The position numbers were made by a program, and so were the translations under genes. From Verrucomicrobiales bacterium (GTDB lineage: Bacteria; Verrucomicrobiota; Verrucomicrobiia; Verrucomicrobiales; DEV007): a DNA stretch of 64,000 nucleotides. Location of the stretch: NCBI GenBank assembly GCA_029213005.1, contig JARGPI010000030.1:3984-67983 (forward strand), read 5' to 3'. The notes beneath the pieces were generated by a model. The model saw only the letters and a list, made by a program, of their open reading frames with translations. It did no database searches and was not told where the DNA came from. This document shows positions 33,686-48,092 of the stretch, piece by piece (within the stretch, counting starts at the first letter, position 1; each line of letters opens with the position of its first letter).

Positions 33686-34678
33686 TCAACTTCGCAGCGA
33701 AATCAGCACCCGGGTTCCGGACTCGGTCGGGAATGCCTCCACGTCATCAACGTATTTCAGCAACCATTCTCTGCCGACGCTTTCGGTAAGCGTCGTGTCC
33801 GCCGGTTTGGGCTGGAGATGCTCGCAGATGTTAAAATCCTCCCTCGGGATGTCGAAAGCGACGCGAAATCCCGGGCTGAGGCTGTCGATCTCCATCGCGA
33901 AGCTCTCGTCCGCCCCCAGTTCCTTGACCATCGTTCGGCACAACTCCTGAACCGCGACATTCAGCTTCACGAGGCCTTCCGACGGAAACTCCACGAGGGC
34001 ACCGATCGTTCCGAGCAGCTGAGACAAATTCTGAAACTGCTCGGCATCCGGCTGGATCGTCATTTTCACTGGCTCGAAGGCAACCCGGGCCGGCATGGGC
34101 TCACCCGTTTCCGGCGGACGTTCTTCGGCCGGAGCAGGCGACTTAAAGATCACCGTTTCCTGGAGAGAGGAATCTTTCTTAAAAATCTGGGTGCGCAGAA
34201 GCGTCGAATCCGGCTTTCTCGATTCCGGCGCTTTCTCTTCGGGCTCCGGTTCGCGCCCGAAACCGATAATGCGGCGCAACGCATTCAACCCCGAACCGCC
34301 CTCTCGAGACGTTCCCCCGGCCTGATTCCCATCACGGGAAAAACCGGTAACCGCTTCCTCCCGTGTGCCGAAGACACCACAGTCTTTGGCAAAACCGACC
34401 GTGGTGAACAGACGGCCAACCTCGGGAGTGAGACGGCAGAATTTCAAATCCCCATCCTGCTCCCGGGCAAATTTCATGATTCGCTGAAACGCCTTGAAAC
34501 CCGAGCTGGAGACAAATTCCACGCCCGATAGATCGCAAATCAACCGCGACGAACCGATCCGGATCAAAGAATTCAATTCCTCCTCAACACGATCCACCGT
34601 GTAGGAGTCGATCCGACCGTCAACCGCCACGCAGGTGACGTTGGAATTGCCAGGTAGAGGTTGAACGTCAATTTCCAT
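33686..34678 (-). CDS. STAS (anti-sigma antagonist) domain fused to a degenerate RsbW-like HATPase domain
   Basis: N-terminal VDGRIDSYT ... DLSGVEFVSSSG ... L...LFTTVGF; Pro/Glu-rich linker; C-terminal KLNVAVQELC ... GREWLLKYVDDVEAF..ESGTRV with N- and G-boxes eroded. Confidence 0.75.
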   Translation of the reverse strand: MEIDVQPLPGNSNVTCVAVDGRIDSYTVDRVEEELNSLIRIGSSRLICDLSGVEFVSSSGFKAFQRIMKFAREQDGDLKFCRLTPEVGRLFTTVGFAKDCGVFGTREEAVTGFSRDGNQAGGTSREGGSGLNALRRIIGFGREPEPEEKAPESRKPDSTLLRTQIFKKDSSLQETVIFKSPAPAEERPPETGEPMPARVAFEPVKMTIQPDAEQFQNLSQLLGTIGALVEFPSEGLVKLNVAVQELCRTMVKELGADESFAMEIDSLSPGFRVAFDIPREDFNICEHLQPKPADTTLTESVGREWLLKYVDDVEAFPTESGTRVLISLRS

Positions 34679-34725: not shown

Positions 34726-37700
34726 TCAGCGTCTCCCCCTGTTCCAGCCCAGCGTGGAAATCCGGAAGGAGATCAGACCGAACAAATCGGTGAGATCATC
34801 CAGAAAACAATAAATCGCGGGGATAAAAACCAGGGTCAGAACCGTGGAAAAGGAAAGTCCGCATACCACCACCACTGCGAGCGGTCGATACAACTCGGCG
34901 CCGGTTCCGTATCCGAGAGCCAGAGGAAACATTCCCAGAACGGTGGTCAAAGTCGTCATCAAAATCGGCCTCAGCCGAGTCAACCCGGCATTGATGATTG
35001 CCTCGTTCCTCGGTTGGCCCCGCGCCCGGAGTATATTGATGTAGTCGATCAAAATAATCGCATTGTTTACCACGATCCCCGCCAGCATAATGATACCGAT
35101 CATCGCTGTCAGCGAAATCAACTCCCCACTTAAATTCAAGCCCAGCACCGCTCCGATCAGTGACAACGGAACGGAAAACATAATCGTAAAAGGATGTATC
35201 AAACTCTCAAACTGACTCGCCATAATCATATAGACCAAAACGATCGCGACAATGAAGGCGTACACGAGATACCCGAGCGATTCGTGCATCGCTGCGGAGG
35301 AACCACCGAGCACCGCGCGATAGCCGGATTCCCGATAGGGAGCCACAGCCCGGGCGACCGGTTCCGCGAGCCGAGCCTCCACTTCCTCCAGCGAAAGGTT
35401 GTCTTTATCAATAAAAATCGGCACCGTCATAATCCGCTCCCGTTCCTCACGGTTAATCAGTCCGGGGCCGGCCTGCGATTCCACCGTCGCGACATCTCTC
35501 AATTTCCAGACCTGCCCGGTTACCGGCGAAATGATATCGAGATTAAGTAGATCATTCTCGCTATTCACCTTCGCTGCTGAAGAGAGCATAATATCATAGG
35601 AGGTATTGTTGATTTCTATATCAGTCACCTGATTCCCTGCTACTGCAGCTTCAACCTGATCCGCAATATCACTTAACGTCAGTCCGCGATCCGCGGCTGC
35701 CTCCCGTTTCACTTTCAGGACCCGCTCCGGCATCCCTTTTGGAATTTGCCCCAAACTGGTGATTCCATAGTTAGCTCGTTTTTCCGAAAGCTCCCCCAAG
35801 AGCCCACCTTCCCCATCGGCTCCAGTCAGAATTTCCCGAATCGTTACCAGATCCGGGCCGGTTAATTTTAAAAGGATATCTCCCTGACTGGTTCCGAGCA
35901 GGTTCTGAATCGGGTTAAGGCTCTGAAGCTGGAAATCGAGAAACGTATCGCGCAACCCGGGATCGTTGGCGAGTGCATCCATCACCGGCGCCAGTTCTTT
36001 GACCGGCTGAACCTGACCATCCATCACCTCCGCTTTATCAAAACTGGCGATCACCCTGACCTCACGGGGCGACACCGAGACGCTGTAGTGACTTAAGGTC
36101 CCGATCCCCCCCAGTTTCGTTTCAATAGCGCGGGCCGAAAGATCTACGGCATCGAGAGTCTGCCCCGCCCTCGCCCGCAACGCCAACTGATAGCTCTCCA
36201 CTTTCGTCTCAGGGAAAAACTCAGCGGAGGGAAGCTGGTAGATCGTTACCACAAACGCGAGTGCCATAATCAGGATCAAAAGCACCCGCACTGCTACCGA
36301 TTCGATCACCGTTTTCAGAATGAGTCGATACCCGTTCGATACCGCTTTTGCGAACTGAACGAGGGGCCACAGCACAAATTGAATGGCGCGGTTGAGCCAA
36401 TCGAAGACCGCGAATTTCATACCCATCACTTTGAAAGTGAGCATTGGTATCAAGGTGAAAGCCACTACCATCGAAAAGATCAAAGTGTAGGTAATCACCC
36501 AGGAAAGATCGCGAAAAATCTGTCCGGCAATCCCGGGAACAAACACCACCGGCAAAAATACCGCGATCGTTGTCAGGGTGCTCGCCCAGACCGCAGGACC
36601 GATCTCTGCAATTGCCTCCATCACCGCTTTTTTGAACCTCCGTTCGTGCGACATCTTCTGGAAGATCGCTTCGGTCACCACAATCGCATTATCGACCACC
36701 ATGCCGACAGCGAGGGTCAAACCGGCCATCGAGAAAATATTGATACTGATCTTCCCCGCATAAAACAGGGAAAACGTCGCGATCACCGACACCGGCATCG
36801 CCAACACCACGATAAAGGTCGACTGGAACCGGCCCAGAAACACCAGTAGAATGATGCTGGCTAAAATCAGCCCCATCAATCCATTGGACCGCACCATATC
36901 GAGCGATTCCTTGATGAAAACCGACTCGTCGTAGGCAATGGTGATTTGCAGAGGTGGTGCCAGCTTGGTCAGCTCCTCTGCCGAAACATTCGGCGCATCG
37001 CGCCGGGTCAGATCAACGAGGACTTCGGCCTGCACCTCACGGGCGGAACTACAGATTTCAACCGAGTTTCCCCCACCCTTTTTATAAATCGAAACCTCGA
37101 CTGATGACGTCGCAAGGTCTGCGGCACGGGTCTTCAACCGGGCGTAACTCGCCGCACTTTTTTCAACCTCGCGGGAGCTAACCTGCGCCACCTCGCCAAG
37201 CCGCCGAATTTCACTACCCGGCGGACTGACAATAAGCAGGGACAGATTCTCGATCGATACTGCGCCCACAGTCCGAATGAGAAAAAGACTGTCACCTTCC
37301 TGTAGTTTCCCGCCCCGTTGAGACAGGTTTTCCCGTCCCAGCGCATCCCGCACCGCAAGTATAGAAAGACCCACAGCGCGTAACTTATCAGGATCGGCCC
37401 GGACCTGAACTTCATATTCTTTCCCGCCCTGCACCTCAACCGCCGCCACTCCGTTGAGCCGTTCCAGGCGGGGCTTAATGGTACGCAGTACGACATCTCT
37501 CAATTCATCGGGATGAACCGGATTCGACGCAGCGGGGTTCGATGCGATATTTAACACCATCACCGCACCGGAGGAGGAGGCACCTTTGAGAACGATCGGC
37601 TCCTCAGCTTCCTCCGGCAGATCGCTTCGAACCTCATCCAGCTTGGCCCTCACATCCATCGCGGCGAGATCCATATTGGTTCCCCATTGAAACGTCAGAT

Positions 37701-37968
37701 TGATCCGGCTGCGCTCATCTCCCGATGTCGAAACCATCGAAGTCGCCCCCTTCACCGTGCCCAGCTTTTCTTCAATCTTCCGGGTCACATTTTGTTCGAT
37801 TTCACTACTGGCCGCGCCCTCGTATTGTGTTTCGATCATCAGCTCCGGCTGGCTGACATCGGGGAACAAATCCTGAGGAAGTCGCTGATAGGCCGCTCCG
37901 CCAAACAATATCATCAGAAGCGTCAACATAAGGACGCTTACCGGACGATTGACGGAAAATTCTTTCAT
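34726..37968 (-). CDS. RND efflux permease (AcrB/MdtB-like), subunit B
   Basis: FSVNRPV, DLFPDVSQP, GMVVDNAIVV, GIVVNNAIILID, RLRPILMTTLTT; ATG at 37968 preferred over track start 38055. Confidence 0.95.
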   Translation of the reverse strand: MKEFSVNRPVSVLMLTLLMILFGGAAYQRLPQDLFPDVSQPELMIETQYEGAASSEIEQNVTRKIEEKLGTVKGATSMVSTSGDERSRINLTFQWGTNMDLAAMDVRAKLDEVRSDLPEEAEEPIVLKGASSSGAVMVLNIASNPAASNPVHPDELRDVVLRTIKPRLERLNGVAAVEVQGGKEYEVQVRADPDKLRAVGLSILAVRDALGRENLSQRGGKLQEGDSLFLIRTVGAVSIENLSLLIVSPPGSEIRRLGEVAQVSSREVEKSAASYARLKTRAADLATSSVEVSIYKKGGGNSVEICSSAREVQAEVLVDLTRRDAPNVSAEELTKLAPPLQITIAYDESVFIKESLDMVRSNGLMGLILASIILLVFLGRFQSTFIVVLAMPVSVIATFSLFYAGKISINIFSMAGLTLAVGMVVDNAIVVTEAIFQKMSHERRFKKAVMEAIAEIGPAVWASTLTTIAVFLPVVFVPGIAGQIFRDLSWVITYTLIFSMVVAFTLIPMLTFKVMGMKFAVFDWLNRAIQFVLWPLVQFAKAVSNGYRLILKTVIESVAVRVLLILIMALAFVVTIYQLPSAEFFPETKVESYQLALRARAGQTLDAVDLSARAIETKLGGIGTLSHYSVSVSPREVRVIASFDKAEVMDGQVQPVKELAPVMDALANDPGLRDTFLDFQLQSLNPIQNLLGTSQGDILLKLTGPDLVTIREILTGADGEGGLLGELSEKRANYGITSLGQIPKGMPERVLKVKREAAADRGLTLSDIADQVEAAVAGNQVTDIEINNTSYDIMLSSAAKVNSENDLLNLDIISPVTGQVWKLRDVATVESQAGPGLINREERERIMTVPIFIDKDNLSLEEVEARLAEPVARAVAPYRESGYRAVLGGSSAAMHESLGYLVYAFIVAIVLVYMIMASQFESLIHPFTIMFSVPLSLIGAVLGLNLSGELISLTAMIGIIMLAGIVVNNAIILIDYINILRARGQPRNEAIINAGLTRLRPILMTTLTTVLGMFPLALGYGTGAELYRPLAVVVVCGLSFSTVLTLVFIPAIYCFLDDLTDLFGLISFRISTLGWNRGRR

Positions 37969-37989
37969 AAAATCAGCGAGATAAAGGGA

Positions 37990-38335
37990 CGAAAGTTCGA
38001 GACGGTACAGGGTCAAACATTTCGCACCTGTGATTCCAGAGATCAAAAAGCCCAAAGGGCTGATTCAGTCTAGCCCGGGGCAGCGCCCCGGGTTTGGATA
38101 CTAATAAATTTTCAGCGCTGAAGGCGCGATTCAAGCTGGCCACCACGATGGGGCGTACAAACAAATTTGGATTTCGTATCACCCTCTTTACCGCTGTTTG
38201 AATCGCACTTTCAGCGCTTTTTCTGAGGGGCGTCCGAATTCCCGGGGCGCTGCCCCGGGCTGGTTTGAATCGCGCCTTTAGCGCTGCGAAAGTTCGAGAC
38301 TGTACAGGGTACAGTCCAAAAGTGTACAGGGTACA
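37990..38335. repeat. Composite palindromic element (A-B-A ... A'-B'-A', 38049-38285) bracketed by 24-bp direct repeats, followed by TGTAC-N3-GTACA doublet locus 3
   Basis: B unit AGCCCGGGGCAGCGCCCCGGG at 38072-38092 and its exact inverse at 38241-38261; A units AGCGCTGAAGGCGCGATTCAA-like at 38049, 38114, 38198(-), 38265(-); CGAAAGTTCGAGAC(G/T)GTACAGGGT at 37990-38013 and 38287-38310; TGTACAGGGTACA at 38301 and 38323. Confidence 0.88.
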
Positions 38336-38352
38336 ATCGGTAAAACTCATCA

Positions 38353-38652
38353 CTAAAAGAAGTCGTCGACCTGCGATACCACGCAGCGCGTTGCCGGATC
38401 CCGCCCCATCCGTTTGGTTACATCCTGAAACCGTCGTACGGCGGCGACGACCCGCCCGGCAGCCTCTTCATCGATAATTGTAACAATCACATTATTGATC
38501 CCCGGCCCGATAGCATTGTTCAGCTTTTCACCGGATTCACCTTTTCCGGTGACGCCGTGAAAGCGGGTGTAGTTATCTACCTTGGCCTGTCGGAGAATCA
38601 TCATGATCTCATTCTCATTTGATTCCTCGAATATTATTTCCACACGCTTCAT
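38353..38652 (-). CDS. PII-like protein (PG0541-type, transporter-associated)
   Basis: MKRVEII ... YTRFHGVTGKGESG ... GPGINNVIVTII ... V.AVRRF; PII-like size (99 aa); start overlaps the RND-A stop (ATGA). Confidence 0.75.
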   Translation of the reverse strand: MKRVEIIFEESNENEIMMILRQAKVDNYTRFHGVTGKGESGEKLNNAIGPGINNVIVTIIDEEAAGRVVAAVRRFQDVTKRMGRDPATRCVVSQVDDFF

Positions 38653-41600
38653 ATATTTCCCCCCAGCATTCGATCTTTAGCGACTGAAAAACGAAATCCC
38701 AGTGACGATGAAAATTCGGCCAACTCATCCAGCAATGAATAGAGAATCGGCAAGGCGAGCAGCGTCAATGGAGTCGACGCGATAAGACCGCCCACCACAA
38801 CCGCCGCCACACCCCGGTAAAGTTCCGTTCCTTCGCCCACTCCGAAAATCAAGGGCACCATCCCGAGAATCGATGTCGTGCTGGTAATCAGAATGCTGCG
38901 CAGCTTCCGTACCGAACCCTGGATAATGGCATCGTCCCGCTCCACACCACGCTGCCGGAGAATATTGATATATTCGACGAGGATAATTCCGTTATTCACC
39001 ACCACCCCGCAAAGAATTACCGCCCCCACGAAGGCCCCGAGGCTGAAAAGTTCGCCGGTGAGATTCAGCATCAAAACCGAACCCGCCGCGGCCAGTGGAA
39101 CCGTTACCATGATCGCGAGCGGATCGAGAAATTTTTCGAACTGGCTGCACATAATCATATAGATCAAAGCCACCGAAATCAAAAAGGCGAAAAACGCATC
39201 TGAAAATGATTCTTTAGTATCTTTGGCCTCACTTTCGATTTGATAGCCAAAGGAATCGTTAAATCCGGGGATGAGTGAAAGCGCCTTTTCAATTTGGGCG
39301 GTCACATCCCCAATTGTCTCACCCGTAACATCATAGGGCGCATAGTGACATTCCAGATTAACGGTCGGTTTCCGGTTGGTCCGCTCCAAAACAATACTGC
39401 CCTCTCCCGGTGAGGGATTCACCACCGCAACTTCCCTGATTTCGTGAAGCAAACCGGTGGAAGCGGAGCGAACCCGGAGGCTCTCCAGCGATTCCGGGGT
39501 GAAATTGCCTTTCGACTCTCCATTACTGTCCTCCAGAAACACCGTGACATCCGTCTCGCCCCCGTTCTCCAAAACCGTTGCGGCCTTCACTCCATAAACC
39601 GACGCTCTGACCGTGTCTGATATTTGCCGGGTGGTTAACCCTTTCTCATTCAGCTCCACCCGTTTCGGCAGTGTAGAGATTTCGATCTCTTTTGGCGTTT
39701 CGTTGATCCGGATTCGCTGATAGATCGCACTGGGTATCGTTTTGAAGACAGGTAGAATCCGTTCCTCCACCTCGGTCTGGAGCGCTTTGAGCTGGCTCGA
39801 TTCATCAAGATCCGACCACGGTTTCCGGGAATACACTTTAAACACAATCGGAGCTGTGGTACCTCCGCGAATTTTGTCTACCAGCGAGACGAAGTTTTTG
39901 CCTTTCAAATCCGGTGTAGAATCGCAACCCTCGCGAATCTGCTGTACACATCTTGATAGAGAGGACCATTGCTGAGGGCGCATTTTCGGTCCTCCTTCAA
40001 TTTCCCGGTTAGGGTAAAGCCTCACGAATAATTTACCTTCGTCATTTCGAATATCTGCTGAGATCGATTTTACAAAATCACGATAGGGAGCGGTTTGCAG
40101 TAATTCTTCGACGCGCTTTAAGCGTTCATCCACGTAGTCGAGCGTCACTCCTGCCGGGGCCTCAAACCGGATCCACAGTTCATCGACATTACCCTGAGGA
40201 AGAAAGCCCCGACCGGGCAAAAATTTCAATGAGAGCAAGGATATCCCGATGAGAAAAACCAATATACCGATTTTGAGAGGCCGCCCCCGAAGCAAAAGCT
40301 TCAAAAGATCGGAGAGTGAATTCTCACTGAATCGATCCCATCGGCACATCGCTTTCTCTATTTTCTGAAAAGGTCGCAACACCACTCCGAGCCATCCGGT
40401 CGCCACCTTTTGGTCCGCCGACTTGGGAGAAAGAATCCGGGCACTGACCATGGGGATAAAGACAATTCCCACTACCATACTCATCAAAACCGACCAGATA
40501 ATGGCGTGGGCGAGACTTTTGAATACCTCCTGCATCAACCCCGGTATAAACAGGATCGGCAGAAACACCGCGACGCTCGTCATTGTCGAGCTGAAGATCC
40601 CCATCGCCACTTCCGAAGCTCCCCGGATCGCCGCCTCTTTCGGGTTTTGACCGAGGCTCAGTTGTTTATAGATCGATTCGATTAACACGATGGAACTGTC
40701 GAGCGTTAAACCGACAGCCAGCCCCAGCCCGCCAAGGGTCAGAATATTCCGACTGATATCAAATCCGTTCAAAAAGATCGCGGCAGACATCATACTAATC
40801 GGCGTTGCCAGCACAACGATAACCGCCGCCCGGAGATCGCGAAGGAACAGAAACAACAGCAACCCTGCGAGGCCGCCCCCCTGCACGATCGAACTGATCA
40901 CAAGTGACTGGGAACTGATCACATACTCGGAATCGTCCTGAGCGATCTGGACTTTGATACCACGTTTTTCCAATACGGGGCTCAATCGTTCCAACTCTTT
41001 CTTAATGCGTTCAACTACCGTAACGACCGACGCGTCCGACGATTTCTTTATCGATAAACCAACCGAAGGCGCGCCATCGATCCGGGCATAGCTCCGTGTT
41101 TCTTTATTAGTCCGGATTACCTCTGCCACATCGCGAATCCTGATTGGACTTTGACCCGGAGGATTTGCCACAATCAAATTTTCGAGATCAGCTTCGGTAT
41201 TGGCTTTCCCCAGAATCCGAAGGGACGCCACCTTTCCATCTTCGATCTCTATTGTGCCACCTTTCCGGTTTTTCGATTCGATCGAGACGGCGCGGATCAA
41301 ACTGAGAACGGTTAATTGATACTGAGCGAGTTTATCCCGGTCACCGACTACCCGGTATTCCGGATCGGTTCCCCCGACGACTTCGACTTCGCCAACCCCG
41401 GCGAGTCTTTCCAGCCCGGGTTTTATCATATCATCAGCCAGCCCCCGCAGGTCCTCAGTCGATAGACCACCACCGACGATATCGAACCGGAAAACCGGAG
41501 CACTCGACGGATCGAACTTCTTGATTAAGGGGCGTGACGCGGCATCGGGGAGATTCAGAGCATTCACCAGCTCCCTCACTTCGATCTCTGCGGCCCGGAC

Positions 41601-41900
41601 ATCGGTTCCCCAATCCAACTGTAGAATGAGGCGGCTCTCCCCCTCCAGCGAAATCGAATTCAATGAGACCAGATTACTGACTCCATTGAGACTTTCCTCG
41701 AGAGGCAGGGTCACTTCTTTATGAACCTTTTCGGGTGAGGTCTTCGGAACTTCCGTTAGCACTACGAGAGTCGGTATAGAAATACTGGGAAGTAACTCCA
41801 CTTCCATCCGGTTGAGTGAAAAGATCCCTCCCATGACCAGAGCCAGCATCAACATGCAGGTCGTCACCGGATGATTAACACTGAACCGAATGATATTCAT
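38649..41900 (-). CDS. RND efflux permease (AcrB/MdtC-like), subunit A
   Basis: FSVNHPV, ELLPSISIP, GLTLDSSIVLIE, GVVVNNGIILVE, KLRSILITSTT. Confidence 0.95.
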   Translation of the reverse strand: MNIIRFSVNHPVTTCMLMLALVMGGIFSLNRMEVELLPSISIPTLVVLTEVPKTSPEKVHKEVTLPLEESLNGVSNLVSLNSISLEGESRLILQLDWGTDVRAAEIEVRELVNALNLPDAASRPLIKKFDPSSAPVFRFDIVGGGLSTEDLRGLADDMIKPGLERLAGVGEVEVVGGTDPEYRVVGDRDKLAQYQLTVLSLIRAVSIESKNRKGGTIEIEDGKVASLRILGKANTEADLENLIVANPPGQSPIRIRDVAEVIRTNKETRSYARIDGAPSVGLSIKKSSDASVVTVVERIKKELERLSPVLEKRGIKVQIAQDDSEYVISSQSLVISSIVQGGGLAGLLLFLFLRDLRAAVIVVLATPISMMSAAIFLNGFDISRNILTLGGLGLAVGLTLDSSIVLIESIYKQLSLGQNPKEAAIRGASEVAMGIFSSTMTSVAVFLPILFIPGLMQEVFKSLAHAIIWSVLMSMVVGIVFIPMVSARILSPKSADQKVATGWLGVVLRPFQKIEKAMCRWDRFSENSLSDLLKLLLRGRPLKIGILVFLIGISLLSLKFLPGRGFLPQGNVDELWIRFEAPAGVTLDYVDERLKRVEELLQTAPYRDFVKSISADIRNDEGKLFVRLYPNREIEGGPKMRPQQWSSLSRCVQQIREGCDSTPDLKGKNFVSLVDKIRGGTTAPIVFKVYSRKPWSDLDESSQLKALQTEVEERILPVFKTIPSAIYQRIRINETPKEIEISTLPKRVELNEKGLTTRQISDTVRASVYGVKAATVLENGGETDVTVFLEDSNGESKGNFTPESLESLRVRSASTGLLHEIREVAVVNPSPGEGSIVLERTNRKPTVNLECHYAPYDVTGETIGDVTAQIEKALSLIPGFNDSFGYQIESEAKDTKESFSDAFFAFLISVALIYMIMCSQFEKFLDPLAIMVTVPLAAAGSVLMLNLTGELFSLGAFVGAVILCGVVVNNGIILVEYINILRQRGVERDDAIIQGSVRKLRSILITSTTSILGMVPLIFGVGEGTELYRGVAAVVVGGLIASTPLTLLALPILYSLLDELAEFSSSLGFRFSVAKDRMLGGNI

Positions 41901-43879
41901 TCCGGAAGCCCGACTGACTCATCCGGATTCAGGATCACCACTTTCAGTCCGTGCTTCACCGCCTTATTCCCTTTAATTACAATCAGATCGTCAGCCGAGA
42001 GCTTTTTCGAATCTTCAATCGGCAACGTCTCAATATACTTTTTGCCGAGATGCTCTACCTCCTGACCGCGCCGGACCGGCACCAGATTAGCGACACTTTC
42101 CCCCGGATCGATCGTAAAAACATGATAGCCAGACTGGTTGTTGGTGTCGAGAGCGGAAAGCGGGATCAGCACAGAGCCCTCGCGAGTCCGGGTAATAAAC
42201 CGTACCGAAACCTGCTGCCCGGGCCGAAAATGATAGTCCCGGTTCGGCACTGAAATCTCTACATCATAAGTCCGGTTCAAAGCGGTGGGAGGGATGTAGC
42301 TTACCTTTCCCCGAAAGACCTGCTCCGGAGCCCGCGACAGCCAGACCTCCGCCTCCATATTTTTACGGATTGATATGATATCGTCCTCCGATACCGAAAC
42401 GGTCACTTTCACCTCGCTCTCATACTCGATCAACTCCATCGAGGAATTGATAGCGGTCACTGTATACCCCTCTTTCAAATCGAGCCGGTTCACGACGCCT
42501 GCGGAATTGGCGGTGATCGTCAGATCATCGATCATCACATCGACATCACCGAGCTCGGTTTGGACCTGAAAGACCTTCTCTTTCGCCTGCACAATGGTTC
42601 GCTCCGCCTGCTCTTTCTCCTCTGCCCGCAACTTCACCGCCGTGCGAGCCTCAGCCAGCTTCACGAGGATTTCGTCCCATTCTTTTTGAAGTAGATTTCC
42701 ATTCCGGTAAACGCGGTAGCTGCGGTCGTGTGTATTCTGGATGATGGAGAGATTTTCGCGGGCATTCCCCAGGACCGCGATGGCTTTGGCCACTTCCGAT
42801 TCCGTTTTCGCGACATCTTCCCGGGCCTGATTCAACCCCGCCACCGCCTGTTTCCGGGCGGAACGCAACTCTTCGGTCAATTCAAACGTGACCAGAGGCT
42901 CACCCTTCCGGACCCGGTCGCCGTTTTTGACATGCACCGTCTCGACTTTCCGCCCCGGCGGGAATGGAATGATATCCTGCCGCGCCAGCTGAACATTTCC
43001 GGTTTTCTCCAGCGTCACCGGAACATCCGCCACGACAGGATGCCCGACCAGCACCGGCACCACTTCCTGAGCCCCGGGCTGAGTCGCCTCCGAAGCGACA
43101 GATTCGGGATTATCTCCCCGCCCCGACATATAGAGAAATACCAATACTCCCGAAATGATCGCCGAAATCAGCCCAAAGGCAGCCGTGTTGCACCCCGAAG
43201 CAAAGCGGGATTCTTTTTCATCCGTCATCTGAGCTGCCGCAGCCTCTTCATCAACCTCGGCAAAAGAAAACATGAAGCGATGCGTTCCTACTTGTATTAC
43301 ATCGCCGGATCGCAATACTTCTTTCTTTACCGGCCGATTGTTTAGCAGCGTCCCGTTTGAAGAACCCAGATCCCTGAGAAAATACCGGGAATTTTCCAAG
43401 ACGATTTCGGTATTGATGCGACTCGAACCGGGGTCATCGATCTGAATCCGACAGATGGGCAGCCGACCTATCAACGTCGGCTCCTCACCAAGTATAAAAA
43501 CCGAGCCCTGACCTGCGCCGGATTTCTGAGTGAGAACACCGCTCTTCCCACCCGGGGCCAAATCGGTAAGGATTTCCGAGGCACTACCGGTTTTGGCTAG
43601 CTGAAGTTGATACTCCCCGATCTCAATGACATCGCCTTCCTTGATTTCCACCCTGGTTTTCGGCGGAATCGAGACACTGCTGATTACCGTGCCATTACCC
43701 GTCCCCAGATCTTCGAAAAAGAATAGTCCATCCCTTGCCGTGAGGCGACCATGACGGCGCGAAGCTTTAGGGTCATCAATAGAAATATCGCTGTCCGGAT
43801 GCCTTCCAACGCTCCAGTTCCCCGCCGATTTCAGAGGGAAATGAGTGGTCGACGATTTTGAGAGTATCACTAATTCCAT
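41897..43879 (-). CDS. RND periplasmic adaptor (MFP) with two N-terminal FHA domains
   Basis: FHA1 WSVGRHPDSDI.IDDPKASRRH ... DLGTGNGT; FHA2 LIGRLPICRI.IDDPGSSRIN ... DLGSSNGT; one TM helix; then lipoyl/hairpin/beta-barrel MFP (VHVKNGDRVRKGEPL, ITANSAGVV, FRGKVSYI, FRPGQ, LIPLSAL). Confidence 0.9.
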   Translation of the reverse strand: MELVILSKSSTTHFPLKSAGNWSVGRHPDSDISIDDPKASRRHGRLTARDGLFFFEDLGTGNGTVISSVSIPPKTRVEIKEGDVIEIGEYQLQLAKTGSASEILTDLAPGGKSGVLTQKSGAGQGSVFILGEEPTLIGRLPICRIQIDDPGSSRINTEIVLENSRYFLRDLGSSNGTLLNNRPVKKEVLRSGDVIQVGTHRFMFSFAEVDEEAAAAQMTDEKESRFASGCNTAAFGLISAIISGVLVFLYMSGRGDNPESVASEATQPGAQEVVPVLVGHPVVADVPVTLEKTGNVQLARQDIIPFPPGRKVETVHVKNGDRVRKGEPLVTFELTEELRSARKQAVAGLNQAREDVAKTESEVAKAIAVLGNARENLSIIQNTHDRSYRVYRNGNLLQKEWDEILVKLAEARTAVKLRAEEKEQAERTIVQAKEKVFQVQTELGDVDVMIDDLTITANSAGVVNRLDLKEGYTVTAINSSMELIEYESEVKVTVSVSEDDIISIRKNMEAEVWLSRAPEQVFRGKVSYIPPTALNRTYDVEISVPNRDYHFRPGQQVSVRFITRTREGSVLIPLSALDTNNQSGYHVFTIDPGESVANLVPVRRGQEVEHLGKKYIETLPIEDSKKLSADDLIVIKGNKAVKHGLKVVILNPDESVGLPE

Positions 43880-43912: not shown

Positions 43913-45445
43913 CTACGGATTAATCATCCCCGCTTCCCGGTCGAGATGGGCCTGAGCCTCTTTCACGTCATACATAGCCTTGAGAACTCCGACTTTCGCT
44001 TCGTTGAATTCATTCTCAGCTTTGGCTACATCTGCCCGGGTTGCGTTTTTGATCAATGCCAGTTCCTTTCTTAACTTTAGATTTTCAGTAGCAGCTGCTG
44101 CATTCTTCTTTGCTACAGTAACACTATTAAGAGCTTCTTCGACTCTATTTTGTGCCTCTTTAATCCTCAGTTGTAGAGAACCGTTCAGAGTCGCCGCATC
44201 AGCAGCGAGCTGGATCTGCCTGGCATAGGCTTCATTCAACTTGGCATTTGCCGCGACTCGCTGACGTCCGACCGGCACACTGACATAGGCACCGACCTGA
44301 TAGTTTGATCCATCGGGCAATAGATTCGTCGTCCCGATAGTCTCCTGCGAATTCGATTCCTCGACATGCCCCCGCAACACCACTTTAGGGAGTCGTCCCG
44401 CCCGGGCGGCCCGCTCCGCTGAAGAGGCCGCCATTTCCGCCGCCCGCACCCGCTGCATTTCAGGGTGACATTCCACATCCACCAGATCGATGCCGGGGCG
44501 TCTTGATACCGATAAACGCTCATTCACCGTAACGCAGTCATTTCGATCCCGACCTATATAGAACAACAACTGCGCCGCGGAGAGATCGTAGCCATTTTTC
44601 GCCTTCAACAGTTCCTGCTCTGCCTGAGCCACGCCGGCATCTACCAGAAGCAACTCAGCATTCCGGGCCTCGCGGGCCTTGACCCGATCCAGCACCGCTG
44701 CCTTTTCTCTCCGTTTTGCGGCAAGTGCCGATTCCCGCAGAGCGACCACTTCTTTGAAAAAGACCAATCTCCAATAGACCTCCGTCACGTGATAAACTGT
44801 CTCCAATTCTTTGACCTTCGCGTGCCAGAAATGCGACTTGGCCTGCGACCTTTCCATTTGAATCTTCCCCCGGGTTTCCCCCCAGTCGAGCAGAGCCTGC
44901 TCGGCCATCAGGCCATAGGCATCCCGCTTGCTTTCACCTCCGCCAATCCGACCGGGCACCCCGAATGTTGCCCCGGGCTGCGAATCGTGAGTGCCATAAG
45001 CGGCGATCAGGGGAAAAGCGTCTTTACCCGTAAATTCACTCTGTGCCAGCTTGATAATTTGATCCTGGCGAACGGAAAGCAGCTCTGGATTGCGCTGCAG
45101 AGCTTCCTCAATCAAACTCGACAAAGCGTCCGATCGGCTCTTTTTCGCAACGGGGATCTCCTGCGGTGCTACCGGAACCGCCACATATCGCGGTTTTTCT
45201 TCGGGTGGTGCCGGTTCCTTCTTTTCAGGCCCTTTCAGCCTTTTGAACAAACCGGGGCCTTTCCGAAATTTCTTCGCTTTCACCTCGGCCTCCACCGGTG
45301 TCGCGATCAATGGCTCATCGGCCCTTGAATCGATCATGAAAAGCATCAAAACGAGTAACACACCACAGCAAAACGCCCCGTGAACGCTTCTCAAAGAAGC
45401 CCGCCCACTTTTCGTTGTTCTGGTTTCCTGCTCTCTCATGACCAC
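43913..45445 (-). CDS. TolC-family outer-membrane efflux protein
   Basis: LIEEALQRNPEL, LLDWGETRG, YHVTEVYWRL, RAARAGRLPKV, GAYVSVPV; helical-barrel repeats. Confidence 0.9.
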   Translation of the reverse strand: MVMREQETRTTKSGRASLRSVHGAFCCGVLLVLMLFMIDSRADEPLIATPVEAEVKAKKFRKGPGLFKRLKGPEKKEPAPPEEKPRYVAVPVAPQEIPVAKKSRSDALSSLIEEALQRNPELLSVRQDQIIKLAQSEFTGKDAFPLIAAYGTHDSQPGATFGVPGRIGGGESKRDAYGLMAEQALLDWGETRGKIQMERSQAKSHFWHAKVKELETVYHVTEVYWRLVFFKEVVALRESALAAKRREKAAVLDRVKAREARNAELLLVDAGVAQAEQELLKAKNGYDLSAAQLLFYIGRDRNDCVTVNERLSVSRRPGIDLVDVECHPEMQRVRAAEMAASSAERAARAGRLPKVVLRGHVEESNSQETIGTTNLLPDGSNYQVGAYVSVPVGRQRVAANAKLNEAYARQIQLAADAATLNGSLQLRIKEAQNRVEEALNSVTVAKKNAAAATENLKLRKELALIKNATRADVAKAENEFNEAKVGVLKAMYDVKEAQAHLDREAGMINP

Positions 45446-45619: not shown

Positions 45620-46129
45620 ATGGTTCACTCAGAATTATTTTCATCGGTAAAAGCCGCTTTTGATCGCGAAGGCTGGGCCTTCACGGAGGTCGAGGGACGG
45701 GAGGTTCTGACCTGTGGTTTCGAAGCTCATCACACCCGGGTGAACCTGCATGTCCAGACTTTCCAGCAAATGAGAGCGGTTTCCGTGGTTTCAGAATCCG
45801 CCCTCCGGACTTCCAACCCGCTGCAGCGGGACCGCCTCGCCGAATTGGTGATGCGAGTCAATCACACCCTCACGGTCGGAGCGTTTGAATTGCAATGGGA
45901 TATCGGCCAGATCATCTTCCGGATCACTAATCTGTTCCCGACTCCGCAGGGCGATATCGATATCATCGCTGGACTGGTTCACAATGTCGTCGCCGAGATG
46001 GACAGAATCAGCCCGATGGAAACCTTGCTCCACCGGGCTGAGGGTCCGGAACTGGCCGGAATTGACATTCTGGAATTAATCAACCGTGAAGACCTCCTGC
46101 CAGAGGTCCCGGTTCCTCAGGGAGAGTGA
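45620..46129 (+). CDS. YbjN / type III chaperone-like domain protein
   Basis: FDREGW.F ... LAELVMRVNHTLTVGAFELQWDIGQIIFR, typical of the YbjN family. Confidence 0.75.
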   Translation: MVHSELFSSVKAAFDREGWAFTEVEGREVLTCGFEAHHTRVNLHVQTFQQMRAVSVVSESALRTSNPLQRDRLAELVMRVNHTLTVGAFELQWDIGQIIFRITNLFPTPQGDIDIIAGLVHNVVAEMDRISPMETLLHRAEGPELAGIDILELINREDLLPEVPVPQGE

Positions 46130-46130
46130 A

Positions 46131-48092
46131 TCAGTCCCGGATCCGGCGAAAGCCGGCGTCGACGATTCGTTTCAGCATTCCCTGGTAATCACAATTTTCC
46201 ATTGCTGCCATTTTGGCCAGATGCCCGTCCCAACACCACCCCGGATTGGGGTTGGCTTCAAGGAGGCGGGGCGTTCCGTTTGAGTCAAGACGCCAGTCAA
46301 AGCGGGCATAATCCCGACATTCGAGGCGCTCGAACAATCGACGACACGAGGAGATCAAAAAGCTTTCCACTTCGACGTCCAAATCAGCCGGAATCGCCTT
46401 TAAATTCCAGTATGGCGATGTCGGATCCCACTTTGCCTCATATCCGCAGATTTTAGGCAGGTCATCAGGCAGGCAACTGTAGTCTTCCTGAATAATCGGT
46501 AGTGGAATCAAATCGTTCGGCATATTGCCGATAAATCCGACACTAATATCTTTACCAGTCAAAAATTCCTCAACCAGAATGGTCTGATTGTAGCCGAATT
46601 TTTCCCGGATTTCGCTGATCGCTTTTTCCAGCTCAAGAATATCGCGACAAACTGAATTTTGGGTGATCCCCACGCTGGAATCGCCAAAGTTCGGCTTAAC
46701 CATCACCGGAAAGGCAATCGTCAACTCATGGAAAGTCGTCGCATCCGGTTCGATCACAAATGCCTCAGGCACAGGGATTTCCATTTCTTTGGCAATTCCC
46801 CGGACCAGTGATTTGTCGAAACAGAAAGCGAGGCACTGAGGTGTACCGCCAGTGTATTCCACGCCCATGATCTCGAAAAGCGCCGGGACATGCAATTCGT
46901 AGCGGGCCCGGTTATCAAAACCCTCGTCGCACAAGTTGAATACCAGGTCACTATTTGCGTTTATCTCCGCGAGATCCGCAATAAGAGTGTCGTGGTTATC
47001 GTAGTAGGTAAATTGATAGCCCTCGAGCTCGTCGATCGCTTCACGCAGTTTATTTAATACCGCAAAATCATCCTCATCAAAAGAACCGTTCGGCTTTACG
47101 GTGTCGGTCCGTCGAGGATCTCCGAGGACAACGGCTACCTTCCGAACCGCTTCACTGGTTTTATCCTGAAGCGCCCATTCTTTATCGGGAGTTCCGATAT
47201 AGAGAATTCGCTGGGCCATCATCCCAAGGTCCTGATTTCTCTGGCTCACGGTAACAAACGGCTCGTGAGCGTTAACATCTTTAAAACCCTGATCCGTTAA
47301 AAACTGAATCATCTGCGGCTCGGAGTAAAGTCGCTCAGCATAGAACTGGTCCGATACCACACCCTTCCGGGTATGAGTGATCACTTCGCGGGAAATCAAA
47401 CGGCTCCCATCATCCGAGAGGCAACGCTCCCGGCAAACCAGGTAGTTTTTATCAATCCATTCCCAACTTCTCGGTTCATACTTCGAGCGCATATACTCGC
47501 CGTCGGTCAGATCAAGGAGCACTTTTCCATCCGGTTTCAGAATGCGATGAATCTCGCTGAGCACCGCCTCGTCTTCCTGAGACGAATCGAAATACCCGAA
47601 ACTGTTTCCGGGAACCATCACAAAGTCGAAAGTGTCATCAGGGAACGGAAGGGTCCGCGCATCACCTTCACGGAAAGTGATACTGAGCCCTTCACGCTTC
47701 GAAGTGATCCGCGCACGGGAAATCAAATAGTGAGACCGGTCGAGACCCGTAACGTTCGCAAAACCCCGTCTCGCGAGAGCGATTGAGTGACGTCCCTGAC
47801 CACAGCAGAGATCGAGGAATTTTGCGTCGGGAGCCGGATTGAGCACATTGAGAAAAGCCGAGATTTCACTCTCGGTAATTTCCGGATCGTTTACGACATC
47901 CCCGTCAGTTCTGAGGTAGTTGGCGTTGAACACATCTCTCCACCAGTCCGCTTTGACATAGCTTTGTAAGTCATCAACCGGGCCGAGAATTTCCGGCTTC
48001 CGATTGTTCTTTTTTGGTTTCGATGGCTTACGCCGGGTGGTTTTGGGGGCCTTGGCCCGCTTAGGTGACTTTTCAGTTGTCGATATCTTCAT
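46131..48092 (-). CDS. SAM-dependent methyltransferase fused to a D-Ala-D-Ala-ligase-like ATP-grasp domain
   Basis: FLDLCCGQGRH, EGDARTLPF, GNSFGYF, LKPDGKVLLD; then VFNLCDEG, EYTGG, VKPNFGDSSVGI, EEFLTG, RDYARFDWR, LEANPNPG. Confidence 0.88.
   Translation of the reverse strand: MKISTTEKSPKRAKAPKTTRRKPSKPKKNNRKPEILGPVDDLQSYVKADWWRDVFNANYLRTDGDVVNDPEITESEISAFLNVLNPAPDAKFLDLCCGQGRHSIALARRGFANVTGLDRSHYLISRARITSKREGLSITFREGDARTLPFPDDTFDFVMVPGNSFGYFDSSQEDEAVLSEIHRILKPDGKVLLDLTDGEYMRSKYEPRSWEWIDKNYLVCRERCLSDDGSRLISREVITHTRKGVVSDQFYAERLYSEPQMIQFLTDQGFKDVNAHEPFVTVSQRNQDLGMMAQRILYIGTPDKEWALQDKTSEAVRKVAVVLGDPRRTDTVKPNGSFDEDDFAVLNKLREAIDELEGYQFTYYDNHDTLIADLAEINANSDLVFNLCDEGFDNRARYELHVPALFEIMGVEYTGGTPQCLAFCFDKSLVRGIAKEMEIPVPEAFVIEPDATTFHELTIAFPVMVKPNFGDSSVGITQNSVCRDILELEKAISEIREKFGYNQTILVEEFLTGKDISVGFIGNMPNDLIPLPIIQEDYSCLPDDLPKICGYEAKWDPTSPYWNLKAIPADLDVEVESFLISSCRRLFERLECRDYARFDWRLDSNGTPRLLEANPNPGWCWDGHLAKMAAMENCDYQGMLKRIVDAGFRRIRD

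What the first reader, a model, noticed from the sequence alone, without database searches (positions are those of the whole stretch)
43130..43879. Tandem FHA domains on the cytoplasmic N-terminus of an RND adaptor
Seen: about 205 aa with two FHA repeats precede the single TM helix of the adaptor. FHA1 keeps the pThr-binding G-R, S-x-x-H and N-G-T residues. FHA2 keeps G-R, S and NGT but has Asn where His is expected (SRIN). Adaptors usually have only a short cytoplasmic tail. Inference: a phospho-reader linked through the membrane to the periplasmic adaptor, with one canonical and one divergent site.
Basis: partly seen in the sequence, partly recalled or inferred. Interest (0 to 1): 0.8.

Follow-up and report, generated by a model that had tools for sequence, protein, structure and literature searches.

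The report
RND pump adaptor carrying two FHA domains
A drug-pump adaptor protein of a Verrucomicrobia-like bacterium carries two intact phosphothreonine-reading (FHA) domains on its cytoplasmic end, a rare and apparently undescribed layout suggesting that protein phosphorylation controls this efflux pump.

Summary
Window 41897..43879 (-) encodes a 660-aa protein: FHA1 (aa 1-96), FHA2 (aa 112-208), one TM helix (aa 231-253) and a complete periplasmic RND adaptor.

- **Domain calls:** Pfam FHA E 2.8e-34 with two stretches. TIGR01730 RND_mfp scores above its curated cut-off. The AF2 model matches AcrA, MacA and MexA.
- **Binding residues:** FHA1 has G-R, S-R-R-H and N-G-T. FHA2 has G-R, S-R-I-N and N-G-T.
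- **FHA2 is not a decaying copy:** it is the better conserved domain. Its Asn marks the RND-linked clade, and two close relatives have His.
- **Operon:** TolC-like OMF, FHA-FHA-adaptor, RND1, PII-like PG0541-family protein, RND2, then a STAS-linker-RsbW-like protein. The STAS gene follows RND2 in 6 of 6 loci. A Hanks Ser/Thr kinase with six predicted TM segments and a HAMP domain follows STAS in 2 of 6, but not in this window.
- **Candidate ligand:** the STAS protein's disordered linker has only two invariant residues, T163 and T175, in TQIF and TVIF motifs.
- **Rarity:** about 15 of 1.84 billion cluster representatives have this architecture. I found no paper describing it.

Best reading: phosphothreonine-dependent, post-translational control of a tripartite RND pump through its adaptor. 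It works like the ABC exporter Rv1747 but is not a member of that family. Binding, ligand and topology are inferred, not shown.

The parts
43913..45445 (-). TolC-like outer-membrane factor, first gene of the operon. It lies 33 nt upstream of the adaptor gene.
   Evidence: Pfam OEP E 4.7e-26. The same gene sits upstream of the adaptor in L001-L004, L085, L089, L091, L092 and L095.
41897..43879 (-). FHA-FHA-TM-RND adaptor (membrane fusion protein), 660 aa
   Evidence: Its stop codon overlaps the RND1 start codon (ATGA).
43592..43879 (-). FHA1 (aa 1-96), with all five canonical residues: G25-R26, S40, H43, N62-G63-T64
43256..43546 (-). FHA2 (aa 112-208): G138-R139, S153-R154, N156 in place of His, N175-G176-T177. 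These residues are invariant in the close family.
43121..43189 (-). Single transmembrane helix (aa 231-253)
   Evidence: Hydropathy maximum 2.24, the only such segment. AF2 predicts a helix at aa 231-252.
41900..43120 (-). Periplasmic adaptor part (aa 254-660): lipoyl-like region, long alpha-hairpin (helices 336-383 and 398-451), and beta-rich C-terminal part
38649..41900 (-). RND permease 1 (1083 aa)
   Evidence: Pfam ACR_tran E 2e-199
38353..38652 (-). 99-aa PII-like, PG0541-family transporter-associated protein. Its start overlaps the RND1 stop (ATGA).
   Evidence: NCBIfam NF045581 58.6 bits against cut-off 45. Pfam P-II. A 99-aa gene occupies the same position in all related loci that reach it; it carries a precomputed P-II hit in all but L089.
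34726..37968 (-). RND permease 2 (1080 aa from the ATG at 37968), a paralogue of RND1 (29-38% identity)
33686..34678 (-). STAS (RsbV-like) - disordered linker - RsbW/SpoIIAB-like domain protein, 330 aa, 47 nt after RND2
   Evidence: Pfam STAS E 3.6e-18. AF2 model plus Foldseek. It follows RND2 in 6 of 6 loci.
34088..34333 (-). Predicted disordered linker of the STAS protein (aa 116-197), carrying T163 (34190..34192, TQIF) and T175 (34154..34156, TVIF)
   Evidence: pLDDT is about 30. T163 and T175 are the only invariant columns of the linker besides G139, in 8 sequences down to 30% identity.

Best explanation
**What it is (shown by sequence).** The gene encodes a membrane-anchored periplasmic adaptor of a tripartite RND efflux system. 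Its N-terminal 208 residues form two complete FHA domains, which are phosphothreonine-peptide readers.

**Where the FHA domains are (inferred).** The protein has no signal peptide and only one TM helix. The adaptor part must be periplasmic, so the FHA pair faces the cytoplasm.

**How it most likely works (inferred).** A Hanks-type Ser/Thr kinase phosphorylates threonines on a cytoplasmic partner. In relatives this kinase is encoded at the end of the operon and has six predicted TM segments and a HAMP domain. In this genome it must lie elsewhere. The tandem FHA module docks onto the phosphothreonines. Docking changes the assembly, clustering or activity of the OMF-adaptor-RND1/RND2 pump. The pump would then be controlled post-translationally rather than only through transcription.

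**Most likely ligand (inferred, less certain).** The product of the last operon gene is a STAS-linker-RsbW-like protein. Its disordered linker keeps just two invariant threonines, T163 (TQIF) and T175 (TVIF), usually 12 residues apart. That is one motif per FHA domain.
For: **Architecture.**
- Two FHA HMM stretches, E 2.8e-34.
- RND_mfp above its curated cut-off.
- AF2 model and Foldseek hits to AcrA, MacA and MexA.
- One TM helix.

**Competence for pThr binding.**
- G-R, S-R and N-G-T are kept in both domains.
- In FHA2 they are invariant across 9 close relatives and kept in the 13 more distant family members tabulated, apart from S-G/S-T in P0080/P0144 and N-K-T in P0096.

**Operon.**
- ATGA overlaps join adaptor to RND1 and RND1 to the PII-like gene.
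- The OMF-adaptor-RND-PII-RND order is conserved down to 40% identity.

**Kinase link.** A Pkinase+HAMP gene lies directly after the STAS gene in L002 and L004.

**STAS link.**
- The STAS gene follows RND2 in 6 of 6 loci where that region is visible.
- The STAS family is as rare as the adaptor family, with 7 clusters.
- The linker is predicted disordered.
- T163 and T175 are, besides G139, the only invariant linker columns.
- L095 carries seven copies of the motif.
- P0183 is a STAS-FHA fusion. Its FHA also has Asn at the His position and is most similar to FHA2.

**Precedents.**
- Rv1747 is an ABC exporter with two FHA domains. It is activated by PknF phosphorylation of two threonines (PMC3138270).
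- GarA, the closest solved relative of FHA2, has its ETTS phosphorylation motif in an unstructured extension (PMC5448819).
Against: - No binding, phosphorylation or topology experiment exists.
- No kinase gene is present in this 64-kb window, and none follows STAS in L001 or L095.
- FHA2 has Asn where 94% of the sampled FHA domains have His. This could weaken the binding loops.
- The conserved hydrophobic position in the linker motifs is mainly +2 (I/V). The +3 position that the classical FHA rule stresses is less conserved.
- The two-Thr segment could instead be a docking motif for something else.
- The STAS alignments are shallow, at 6-8 sequences.
- RND permeases offer little cytoplasmic surface, so it is unclear how a cytoplasmic event would reach the pump.
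Confidence: 0.55

Rival explanations
1. The FHA pair is still a phospho-reader, but the ligand differs. It would bind the autophosphorylated kinase (activation loop or juxtamembrane region) or another phosphoprotein. The result would be clustering or localisation of pumps, as proposed for Rv1747, rather than gating through the STAS protein.
For: - The operon kinase of L002 and L004 has a conserved NTQVGFGTPGY activation loop and a conserved T-G after the kinase domain.
- Per its abstract, the FHA domains of Rv1747 are substrates of PknF (PMC8339232).
- The kinase is next to the operon in 2 of 6 loci.
Against: - The kinase is absent from 4 of 6 neighbourhoods, whereas STAS is in 6 of 6.
- The adaptor's own linkers hold no conserved Thr. 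The window has Ser where several relatives have Thr in GK(T/S)GVL. Rv1747-style self-binding is therefore unlikely.
Confidence: 0.2
2. The FHA folds act as a phospho-independent scaffold, as in T3SS YscD/PrgH or T7SS EssC (from general knowledge). They would form a cytoplasmic ring or oligomerisation platform under the adaptor hexamer.
For: - Pfam Yop-YscD_cpl also matches both domains, at 93.8 bits.
- The topology is the same as in YscD: an N-terminal FHA fold, one TM helix, then a periplasmic ring-forming part.
Against: - The pThr-contacting residues are conserved in both domains and are near-invariant in FHA2 across the family. From general knowledge, phospho-independent FHA folds lack them.
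- The Yop-YscD_cpl hit overlaps the stronger FHA hit.
- A Hanks kinase lies in the operon of relatives.
Confidence: 0.12
3. The FHA pair recognises cargo. It would capture a phosphorylated cytoplasmic substrate or substrate-carrier for export, in the way the cytoplasmic N-terminus of HlyD senses substrate in type I secretion (from general knowledge).
For: - The adaptor fold also matches HlyD/EmrA/MacA-type adaptors.
- Distant FHA-FHA-adaptor proteins occur without an adjacent RND gene, for example L087 next to FtsW/RodA.
Against: - In this family the partners are two RND permeases. From established knowledge of AcrB-type pumps, these take substrate from the periplasm or the outer leaflet, not from the cytoplasm.
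- No ABC or MFS partner lies in the operon.
Confidence: 0.06
4. The fusion is an artefact: a misassembly, a frameshift joining two genes, or a decaying pseudogene.
For: None found.
Against: - The same uninterrupted architecture occurs in 14 close and 10 distant proteins, about 15 clusters at 50% identity, from independent assemblies.
- The functional residues are conserved.
Confidence: 0.01

Closest known systems
Rv1747 of Mycobacterium tuberculosis (ABC exporter with two N-terminal FHA domains, regulated by PknF)
   Same: - A tandem cytoplasmic FHA module is fused to an export machine.
- A Hanks kinase is encoded next to it (here only in relatives L002 and L004).
- Two threonine motifs serve as ligands. 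This is shown for Rv1747 (PMC3138270) and proposed here.
   Different: - The carrier is the periplasmic adaptor of a proton-driven RND pump in a diderm bacterium, not the ATPase-permease chain itself.
- The inter-FHA linker is short, about 15-20 aa, and has no conserved Thr.
- The candidate phospho-sites therefore sit on a separate protein.
- No Rv1747 chain appears among the PDB sequence hits at E <= 0.001.
TM-anchored adaptors MacA, EmrA and HlyD
   Same: - Single N-terminal TM helix.
- Long alpha-hairpin and beta-rich domains.
- Foldseek E 1e-15 to 6e-20.
   Different: From general knowledge, those adaptors have cytoplasmic tails of a few to about 60 residues and no recognised signalling domain. 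This one has 230 residues with two FHA domains.
FHA-fold components of secretion and motility machines: T3SS YscD/PrgH, T6SS Fha/TagH with PpkA, Myxococcus GltG
   Same: - N-terminal FHA, one TM helix, then a periplasmic part (YscD, GltG).
- Kinase-FHA control of an envelope-spanning machine (T6SS).
- Weak NCBIfam similarity to TagH and GltG.
   Different: - No T3SS, T6SS or gliding genes are nearby.
- All scores lie far below those families' cut-offs.
- The periplasmic part is an RND adaptor.
GarA/OdhI FHA regulators of Actinobacteria
   Same: - They are the closest solved relatives of FHA2, at E 4e-15.
- GarA's phosphorylation sites lie in an E-T-T-S motif in an unstructured segment (PMC5448819). 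This resembles the E-T-V-I-F motif in the STAS linker.
   Different: - GarA is a soluble one-domain protein that binds its own tail and metabolic enzymes.
- The score is far below the OdhI equivalog cut-off: 98 against 200 bits.
RsbV-RsbW / SpoIIAA-SpoIIAB partner-switching pairs (for the last operon gene)
   Same: The N-domain superposes on SpoIIAA/RsbV (TMt 0.8-0.9). The C-domain superposes on RsbW/SpoIIAB/UsfX (TMt 0.65-0.84).
   Different: - Both halves are fused in one chain through an 80-aa disordered linker.
- By inspection, the N-box Asn and the DxGxG box of the kinase are not conserved.
- By my recalled alignment with SpoIIAA, position 58 is the canonical phospho-Ser. It is Gly in P0180.
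- No sigma factor is adjacent.
P. gingivalis PG0538-PG0541 and E. coli MdtABC-type operons
   Same: - A PG0541-family PII-like gene lies directly after an RND permease (PMC12094164).
- There are two RND paralogues with one adaptor, as in MdtABC (general knowledge).
   Different: Neither of those systems has FHA domains on the adaptor, a STAS gene or a kinase.

Membership tests
FHA domain (Pfam PF00498) | HMM match above the gathering score | tested here: met
   117.8 bits against 20.7, in two stretches
FHA domain (Pfam PF00498) | The five signature residues: G-R, S-x-x-H, N-G-T | tested here: met
   FHA1 has 5 of 5. FHA2 has 4 of 5, with Asn156 in place of His. In a census of 549 FHA domains that position is H 517 times and N 17 times.
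FHA domain (Pfam PF00498) | Phosphothreonine-specific peptide binding | not testable with these tools
   This needs ITC or fluorescence polarisation with phosphopeptides.
RND periplasmic adaptor (TIGR01730 RND_mfp) | HMM match above the curated cut-off | tested here: met
   98.7 bits against 94.9
RND periplasmic adaptor (TIGR01730 RND_mfp) | Adaptor fold: hairpin, lipoyl, beta-barrel and membrane-proximal domains | tested here: met
   The AF2 model has pLDDT 77. Foldseek finds AcrA, MacA and MexA, prob 1.0, E down to 3e-21. The individual domains were not assigned one by one.
RND periplasmic adaptor (TIGR01730 RND_mfp) | Encoded with an RND permease and an outer-membrane factor | tested here: met
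   OEP lies upstream and two ACR_tran genes downstream, with overlapping stop/start codons.
Rv1747-type FHA-regulated exporter | Two N-terminal cytoplasmic FHA domains on the transporter chain | tested here: not met
   The two FHA domains are present, but on the adaptor of an RND pump. There is no ABC domain.
Rv1747-type FHA-regulated exporter | Phospho-acceptor threonines in a long inter-FHA linker | tested here: not met
   The linker is about 15-20 aa and has no conserved Thr.
Rv1747-type FHA-regulated exporter | Cognate Hanks kinase in the same operon | tested here: inconclusive
   A kinase is present in L002 and L004. It is absent from the window and from L001 and L095.
T3SS YscD/PrgH cytoplasmic domain (PF16697) | HMM match plus T3SS gene context | tested here: not met
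   The HMM match (93.8 bits) overlaps the stronger FHA match. No T3SS genes are in the window.
RsbV/RsbW partner-switching module (last operon gene) | STAS domain and GHKL anti-sigma kinase fold | tested here: met
   Pfam STAS E 3.6e-18. Foldseek matches both partners.
RsbV/RsbW partner-switching module (last operon gene) | Catalytic N-box Asn and G1 box in the kinase half; conserved phospho-Ser in STAS | tested here: not met
   By inspection of alignments A6 and A8, the N-box position is T/S/N/I/A and there is no DxGxG. Position 58, which I take from a recalled alignment with SpoIIAA to be the phospho-Ser, is Gly in P0180.
PG0541-family transporter-associated protein (NF045581) | HMM match above the cut-off, encoded after an RND permease | tested here: met
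   58.6 bits against 45. It has the same position as in P. gingivalis PG0538-0541.

The most novel reading that the evidence does not exclude
A complete phosphothreonine circuit may be built into an RND efflux operon. A membrane Hanks kinase with a HAMP domain senses an envelope signal. It phosphorylates two threonine motifs in the disordered linker of a STAS-pseudoRsbW protein. The tandem FHA domains of the adaptor capture these two motifs bivalently. This switches assembly or activity of a heteromeric RND1/RND2 pump. If true, it would be the first case I know of where a Gram-negative-type tripartite RND pump is gated post-translationally by Ser/Thr phosphorylation through its adaptor.
Probability: 0.3. 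Interest if true: 0.8.

Novelty: new variant of a known kind. Interest (0 to 1): 0.6.

Why it matters
From general knowledge, tripartite RND pumps are regulated almost entirely through transcription. Known protein-level modulators are few and small. The adaptor is treated as a purely periplasmic part with at most a membrane anchor.

An adaptor that carries two intact phosphothreonine readers into the cytoplasm would be different. It sits in an operon with a STAS/RsbW-like protein, a PII-like protein and, in relatives, a Hanks kinase. This would give a direct route from Ser/Thr signalling to efflux.

It would also extend the 'FHA on an exporter' principle, known from the mycobacterial ABC transporter Rv1747, to a different transporter class and a different envelope type.

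The predictions are sharp. Two Arg residues, one Asn/His position and two threonines can each be mutated.

The limits are that the family is small and known only from uncultured Verrucomicrobia-like bacteria. The substrate of the pump is unknown.

Tried and rejected
1. **Species scan.** I scanned the GTDB species genomes with the family alignment. The most conserved pattern was the FHA NGT loop. The scan says nothing about the species distribution.
2. **Positive-inside rule.** I counted K+R in the 15 residues on each side of the TM helix for 19 of 21 family members (no hydrophobic segment reached the threshold in two). The totals were 36 and 37, which is uninformative.
3. **Conserved Thr in the adaptor's own linkers.** This tested for Rv1747-style self-binding. 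None was found, and the window has Ser at the only semi-conserved position.
4. **Invariant Thr in cytoplasmic parts of OMF, RND1, the PII-like protein and RND2**. All were in TM helices, periplasmic domains or generic RND motifs, apart from two in the cytoplasmic PII-like protein (T29, T88) that I did not pursue. I saw no convincing candidate.
5. **Kinase in the window.** A motif scan of all ORFs of 150 aa or more and a tblastn search with the L002 and L004 kinases found nothing. There is no second FHA protein in the window either.
6. **Literature.** Three full-text searches combined FHA with membrane fusion protein, HlyD or periplasmic adaptor. No title, abstract or hit count pointed to a description of this architecture; the hits themselves were not read.
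7. **Structure prediction of the STAS protein.** I repeated it with database homologues.
8. **Rfam.** The window has nothing at gathering threshold.
Full report
**1. The observation**

The finding lies in ORF 41897..43879 on the minus strand, 660 aa.
- Pfam finds the FHA domain twice (E 2.8e-34, 117.8 bits, cut-off 20.7). It also finds the HlyD_D23 and HlyD_3 adaptor domains.
- NCBIfam places the C-terminal part in TIGR01730, the RND periplasmic adaptor subfamily, at 98.7 bits against a cut-off of 94.9.
- Hydropathy shows one membrane segment at aa 231-253 and no N-terminal signal peptide. The first residues already form the first strand of FHA1.

- FHA1: G25-R26, S40-R41-R42-H43, N62-G63-T64.
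- FHA2: G138-R139, S153-R154-I155-N156, N175-G176-T177.

An AlphaFold2 model built on nine family sequences has mean pLDDT 77. It gives two beta-sandwich domains (aa 1-95 and 112-208) and a helix at aa 231-252. It also gives a long alpha-hairpin (helices 336-383 and 398-451) and beta-rich C-terminal domains. Foldseek matches the model to AcrA, MacA, MexA and EmrA with probability 1.0.

By sequence, the closest solved relative of FHA2 is GarA/OdhI, at E 4e-15. The His of GarA's SRRH aligns with Asn156.

**2. The two FHA domains compared**

- The 'His' position is His in 517 domains and Asn in 17.
- Almost all of the Asn cases are FHA2 of this very family.
- The Asn is kept in the RND-linked clade down to 25-28% identity (P0034, P0036, P0048).
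- Two close relatives (P0006, P0007) and the distant clade (P0042, P0045, P0054, P0096, P0080, P0086, P0144) have His.

G-R, S-R and N-G-T of FHA2 are invariant in the close family. In the distant members only P0080/P0144 (S-G, S-T) and P0096 (N-K-T) depart from them. FHA1 is more variable. Its N-G-T becomes S/T-G-T in some members, and the domain is degenerate in P0045 (GANEQH..GEV).

So the membrane-proximal FHA2 is the constant element, and the Asn is a tolerated clade signature. From general knowledge of FHA structures, the His braces the binding loops rather than touching the phosphate. I therefore rate both domains as probably able to bind phosphothreonine. This is an inference.

**3. 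The surroundings**

The gene is the second of six co-directional genes.

| Order | Gene | Coordinates (-) | Evidence |
|---|---|---|---|
| 1 | TolC-like outer-membrane factor | 43913..45445 | |
| 2 | FHA-FHA adaptor | 41897..43879 | |
| 3 | RND permease 1 | 38649..41900 | |
| 4 | 99-aa PII-like, PG0541-family transporter-associated protein | 38353..38652 | NF045581, 58.6 bits against 45 |
| 5 | RND permease 2 (29-38% identical to RND1) | 34726..37968 | |
| 6 | 330-aa STAS protein | 33686..34678 | |

The adaptor/RND1 and RND1/PII junctions are ATGA overlaps.

The order OMF, adaptor, RND, PII-like, RND recurs in relatives that are 40-62% identical in the adaptor (L001, L002, L003, L004, L089, L095) and in L092, whose adaptor I did not compare. 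The STAS gene follows RND2 in all six loci where that region is on the contig. These are the window, L001, L002, L004, L092 and L095.

In L002 and L004 the next gene encodes a protein of 607-613 aa. It has an N-terminal Hanks kinase domain (HRDIKPGN, DFG), six predicted TM segments and a C-terminal HAMP domain. In L004 its start overlaps the STAS stop.

The window has no such kinase and no other FHA protein.

**4. The STAS protein**

An AF2 model from six sequences shows three parts:
- a STAS domain (aa 1-113);
- a linker of about 80 residues with pLDDT near 30 (aa 116-197);
- a C-terminal alpha/beta domain (aa 204-328).

Foldseek matches the first domain to SpoIIAA/RsbV and the last to the anti-sigma kinases RsbW, SpoIIAB and UsfX. 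A profile search of PDB sequences gives the same two partners.

By inspection, the kinase-like half has lost the N-box Asn and the DxGxG box. By my recalled alignment with SpoIIAA, position 58 is the canonical phospho-Ser of the STAS half, and it is Gly in P0180. The protein is therefore probably not a working RsbV/RsbW pair.

The striking feature is in the linker. Across eight sequences down to 30% identity, its only invariant columns besides G139 are T163 and T175.
- They sit in TQIF and ETVIF in the window, and in T-[QVL]-[IVL]-x motifs elsewhere.
- They are 12 residues apart in six of eight sequences.
- The L095 orthologue carries seven such motifs, five of them of the form [MF][QE]T[LM][VI]xG.

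One short homologue, P0183, has a STAS domain followed directly by an FHA domain. That FHA also has Asn at the His position and is most similar to FHA2.

**5. How common the architecture is**

- A word-indexed search of 5.8e9 proteins found ten full-length or fragmentary relatives, one of them from a Verrucomicrobiales MAG.
- An exhaustive HMMER search of 1.84e9 cluster representatives used the family profile. It listed five close clusters plus ten more distant proteins in which an HMM of the adaptor part also matches. Pfam confirms FHA plus HlyD_D23 in 14 of the 16 proteins I tested.
- This is a lower bound, because only the best 150 hits are listed. Against 172,042 proteins that match either half, the fusion is very rare.
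- Distant members sit in other contexts. L085 has an OMF upstream, and L087 is next to FtsW/RodA with no RND gene.
- Three full-text searches turned up no paper whose title, abstract or hit counts pointed to this architecture; I did not read the hits. The only source name I saw for the adaptor (P0002) is 'FHA domain-containing protein'.

**6. Mechanism**

*Shown by sequence:*
- a bona fide RND adaptor with two FHA domains that keep the phosphothreonine-binding residues;
- a conserved operon with a STAS/RsbW-like protein and a PII-like protein;
- a Hanks kinase at the operon end in two relatives.

*Inferred:*
- the FHA pair is cytoplasmic, because there is one TM helix and the adaptor must be periplasmic;
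- it reads phosphothreonine written by a Hanks kinase;
- this controls assembly, clustering or activity of the pump.

*More speculative:* the ligand is the pair of threonine motifs in the STAS linker, one per FHA domain.

The nearest functional precedent is Rv1747. Two FHA domains on that ABC exporter bind two phosphothreonines written by the operon kinase PknF, and phosphorylation activates the transporter (PMC3138270). In GarA, the closest solved relative of FHA2, the phosphorylation sites lie in an ETTS motif in an unstructured extension (PMC5448819).

The differences from Rv1747 are clear.
- The transporter class differs.
- The FHA module is on the adaptor rather than the pump.
- The inter-FHA linker is short and lacks a conserved Thr.

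So this system works like Rv1747 but is not a member of that family.

**7. Weak points**

- No experiment exists.
- The positive-inside rule is silent on topology.
- The kinase is absent from four of six neighbourhoods.
- The best-conserved hydrophobic position after the threonines is +2, not the classical +3.
- The STAS alignments are shallow.
- It is unclear how a cytoplasmic event would reach a pump whose working parts are periplasmic and intramembrane.

**8. Rivals**

- The ligand is another phosphoprotein, such as the kinase itself, and the effect is pump clustering.
- The FHA folds are a phospho-independent scaffold of the YscD/EssC kind. The conserved binding residues argue against this.
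- The FHA pair recognises cytoplasmic cargo. The RND partners argue against this.
- The fusion is an assembly artefact. Its recurrence in independent assemblies excludes this.

**9. Verdict**

I class it as a new variant of a known kind: known parts in an apparently undescribed combination, with a conserved and unusual regulatory gene set around it. Interest is 0.6.

Noticed in passing
window 37969..38352: The gap between the PII-like gene and RND2 is about 385 bp here, against 18-86 bp in L001, L002 and L004. It holds a 24-nt direct repeat (37990-38013 and 38287-38310, 297 bp apart), nested inverted repeats with CCCGGGGC..GCCCCGGG hairpins, and a sub-threshold Rfam hit to Acido-Lenti-1 (38241-38285 +, 34.1 bits against 37). 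It looks like a small repeat element inserted inside the operon. Its core motif occurs nowhere else in the window.
   Followed up: partly
P0183 (219 aa, 1-kb metagenome contig): This protein has a STAS domain related to the operon's STAS protein, fused directly to an FHA domain. That FHA has S-G-K-N (Asn at the His position) and is most similar to FHA2 of the adaptor. It is a possible Rosetta-stone link between the two proteins.
   Followed up: partly
L095:12642-13814: In the orthologous STAS protein of a relative whose adaptor is 41% identical, the linker carries seven threonine motifs, five of them of the form [MF][QE]T[LM][VI]xG, instead of the two or three found in the others. In the same locus RND2 is split into two ORFs.
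   Followed up: partly
L092:10001-12226: In this copy of the operon the STAS gene is cut short at 255 aa. An IS element (HTH_Tnp_1 plus rve transposase genes) lies directly behind it.
   Followed up: no
L087:2304-5387: A distant FHA-FHA-TM-adaptor protein (P0045, with a degenerate FHA1) lies next to an FtsW/RodA-family gene and has no RND permease nearby. The architecture is therefore not tied to RND pumps everywhere.
   Followed up: no
window 29486..31348 (+): A 620-aa protein combines an N-terminal cyclic-nucleotide-binding domain with a class II fumarase/aspartase-type lyase (Lyase_1 plus FumaraseC_C). I did not check how common this fusion is.
   Followed up: no
window 46131..48092 (-): A 653-aa protein combines a SAM-dependent methyltransferase domain with a D-Ala-D-Ala-ligase-like ATP-grasp domain, behind a Lys/Pro-rich N-terminus. 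A weak YbjN-like gene lies next to it at 45620..46129.
   Followed up: no
window 43913..45445 (-): In the outer-membrane factor the Pfam OEP match starts only at residue 108. The first ~100 residues contain a hydrophobic segment and a Lys/Pro/Glu-rich stretch of unknown role.
   Followed up: no
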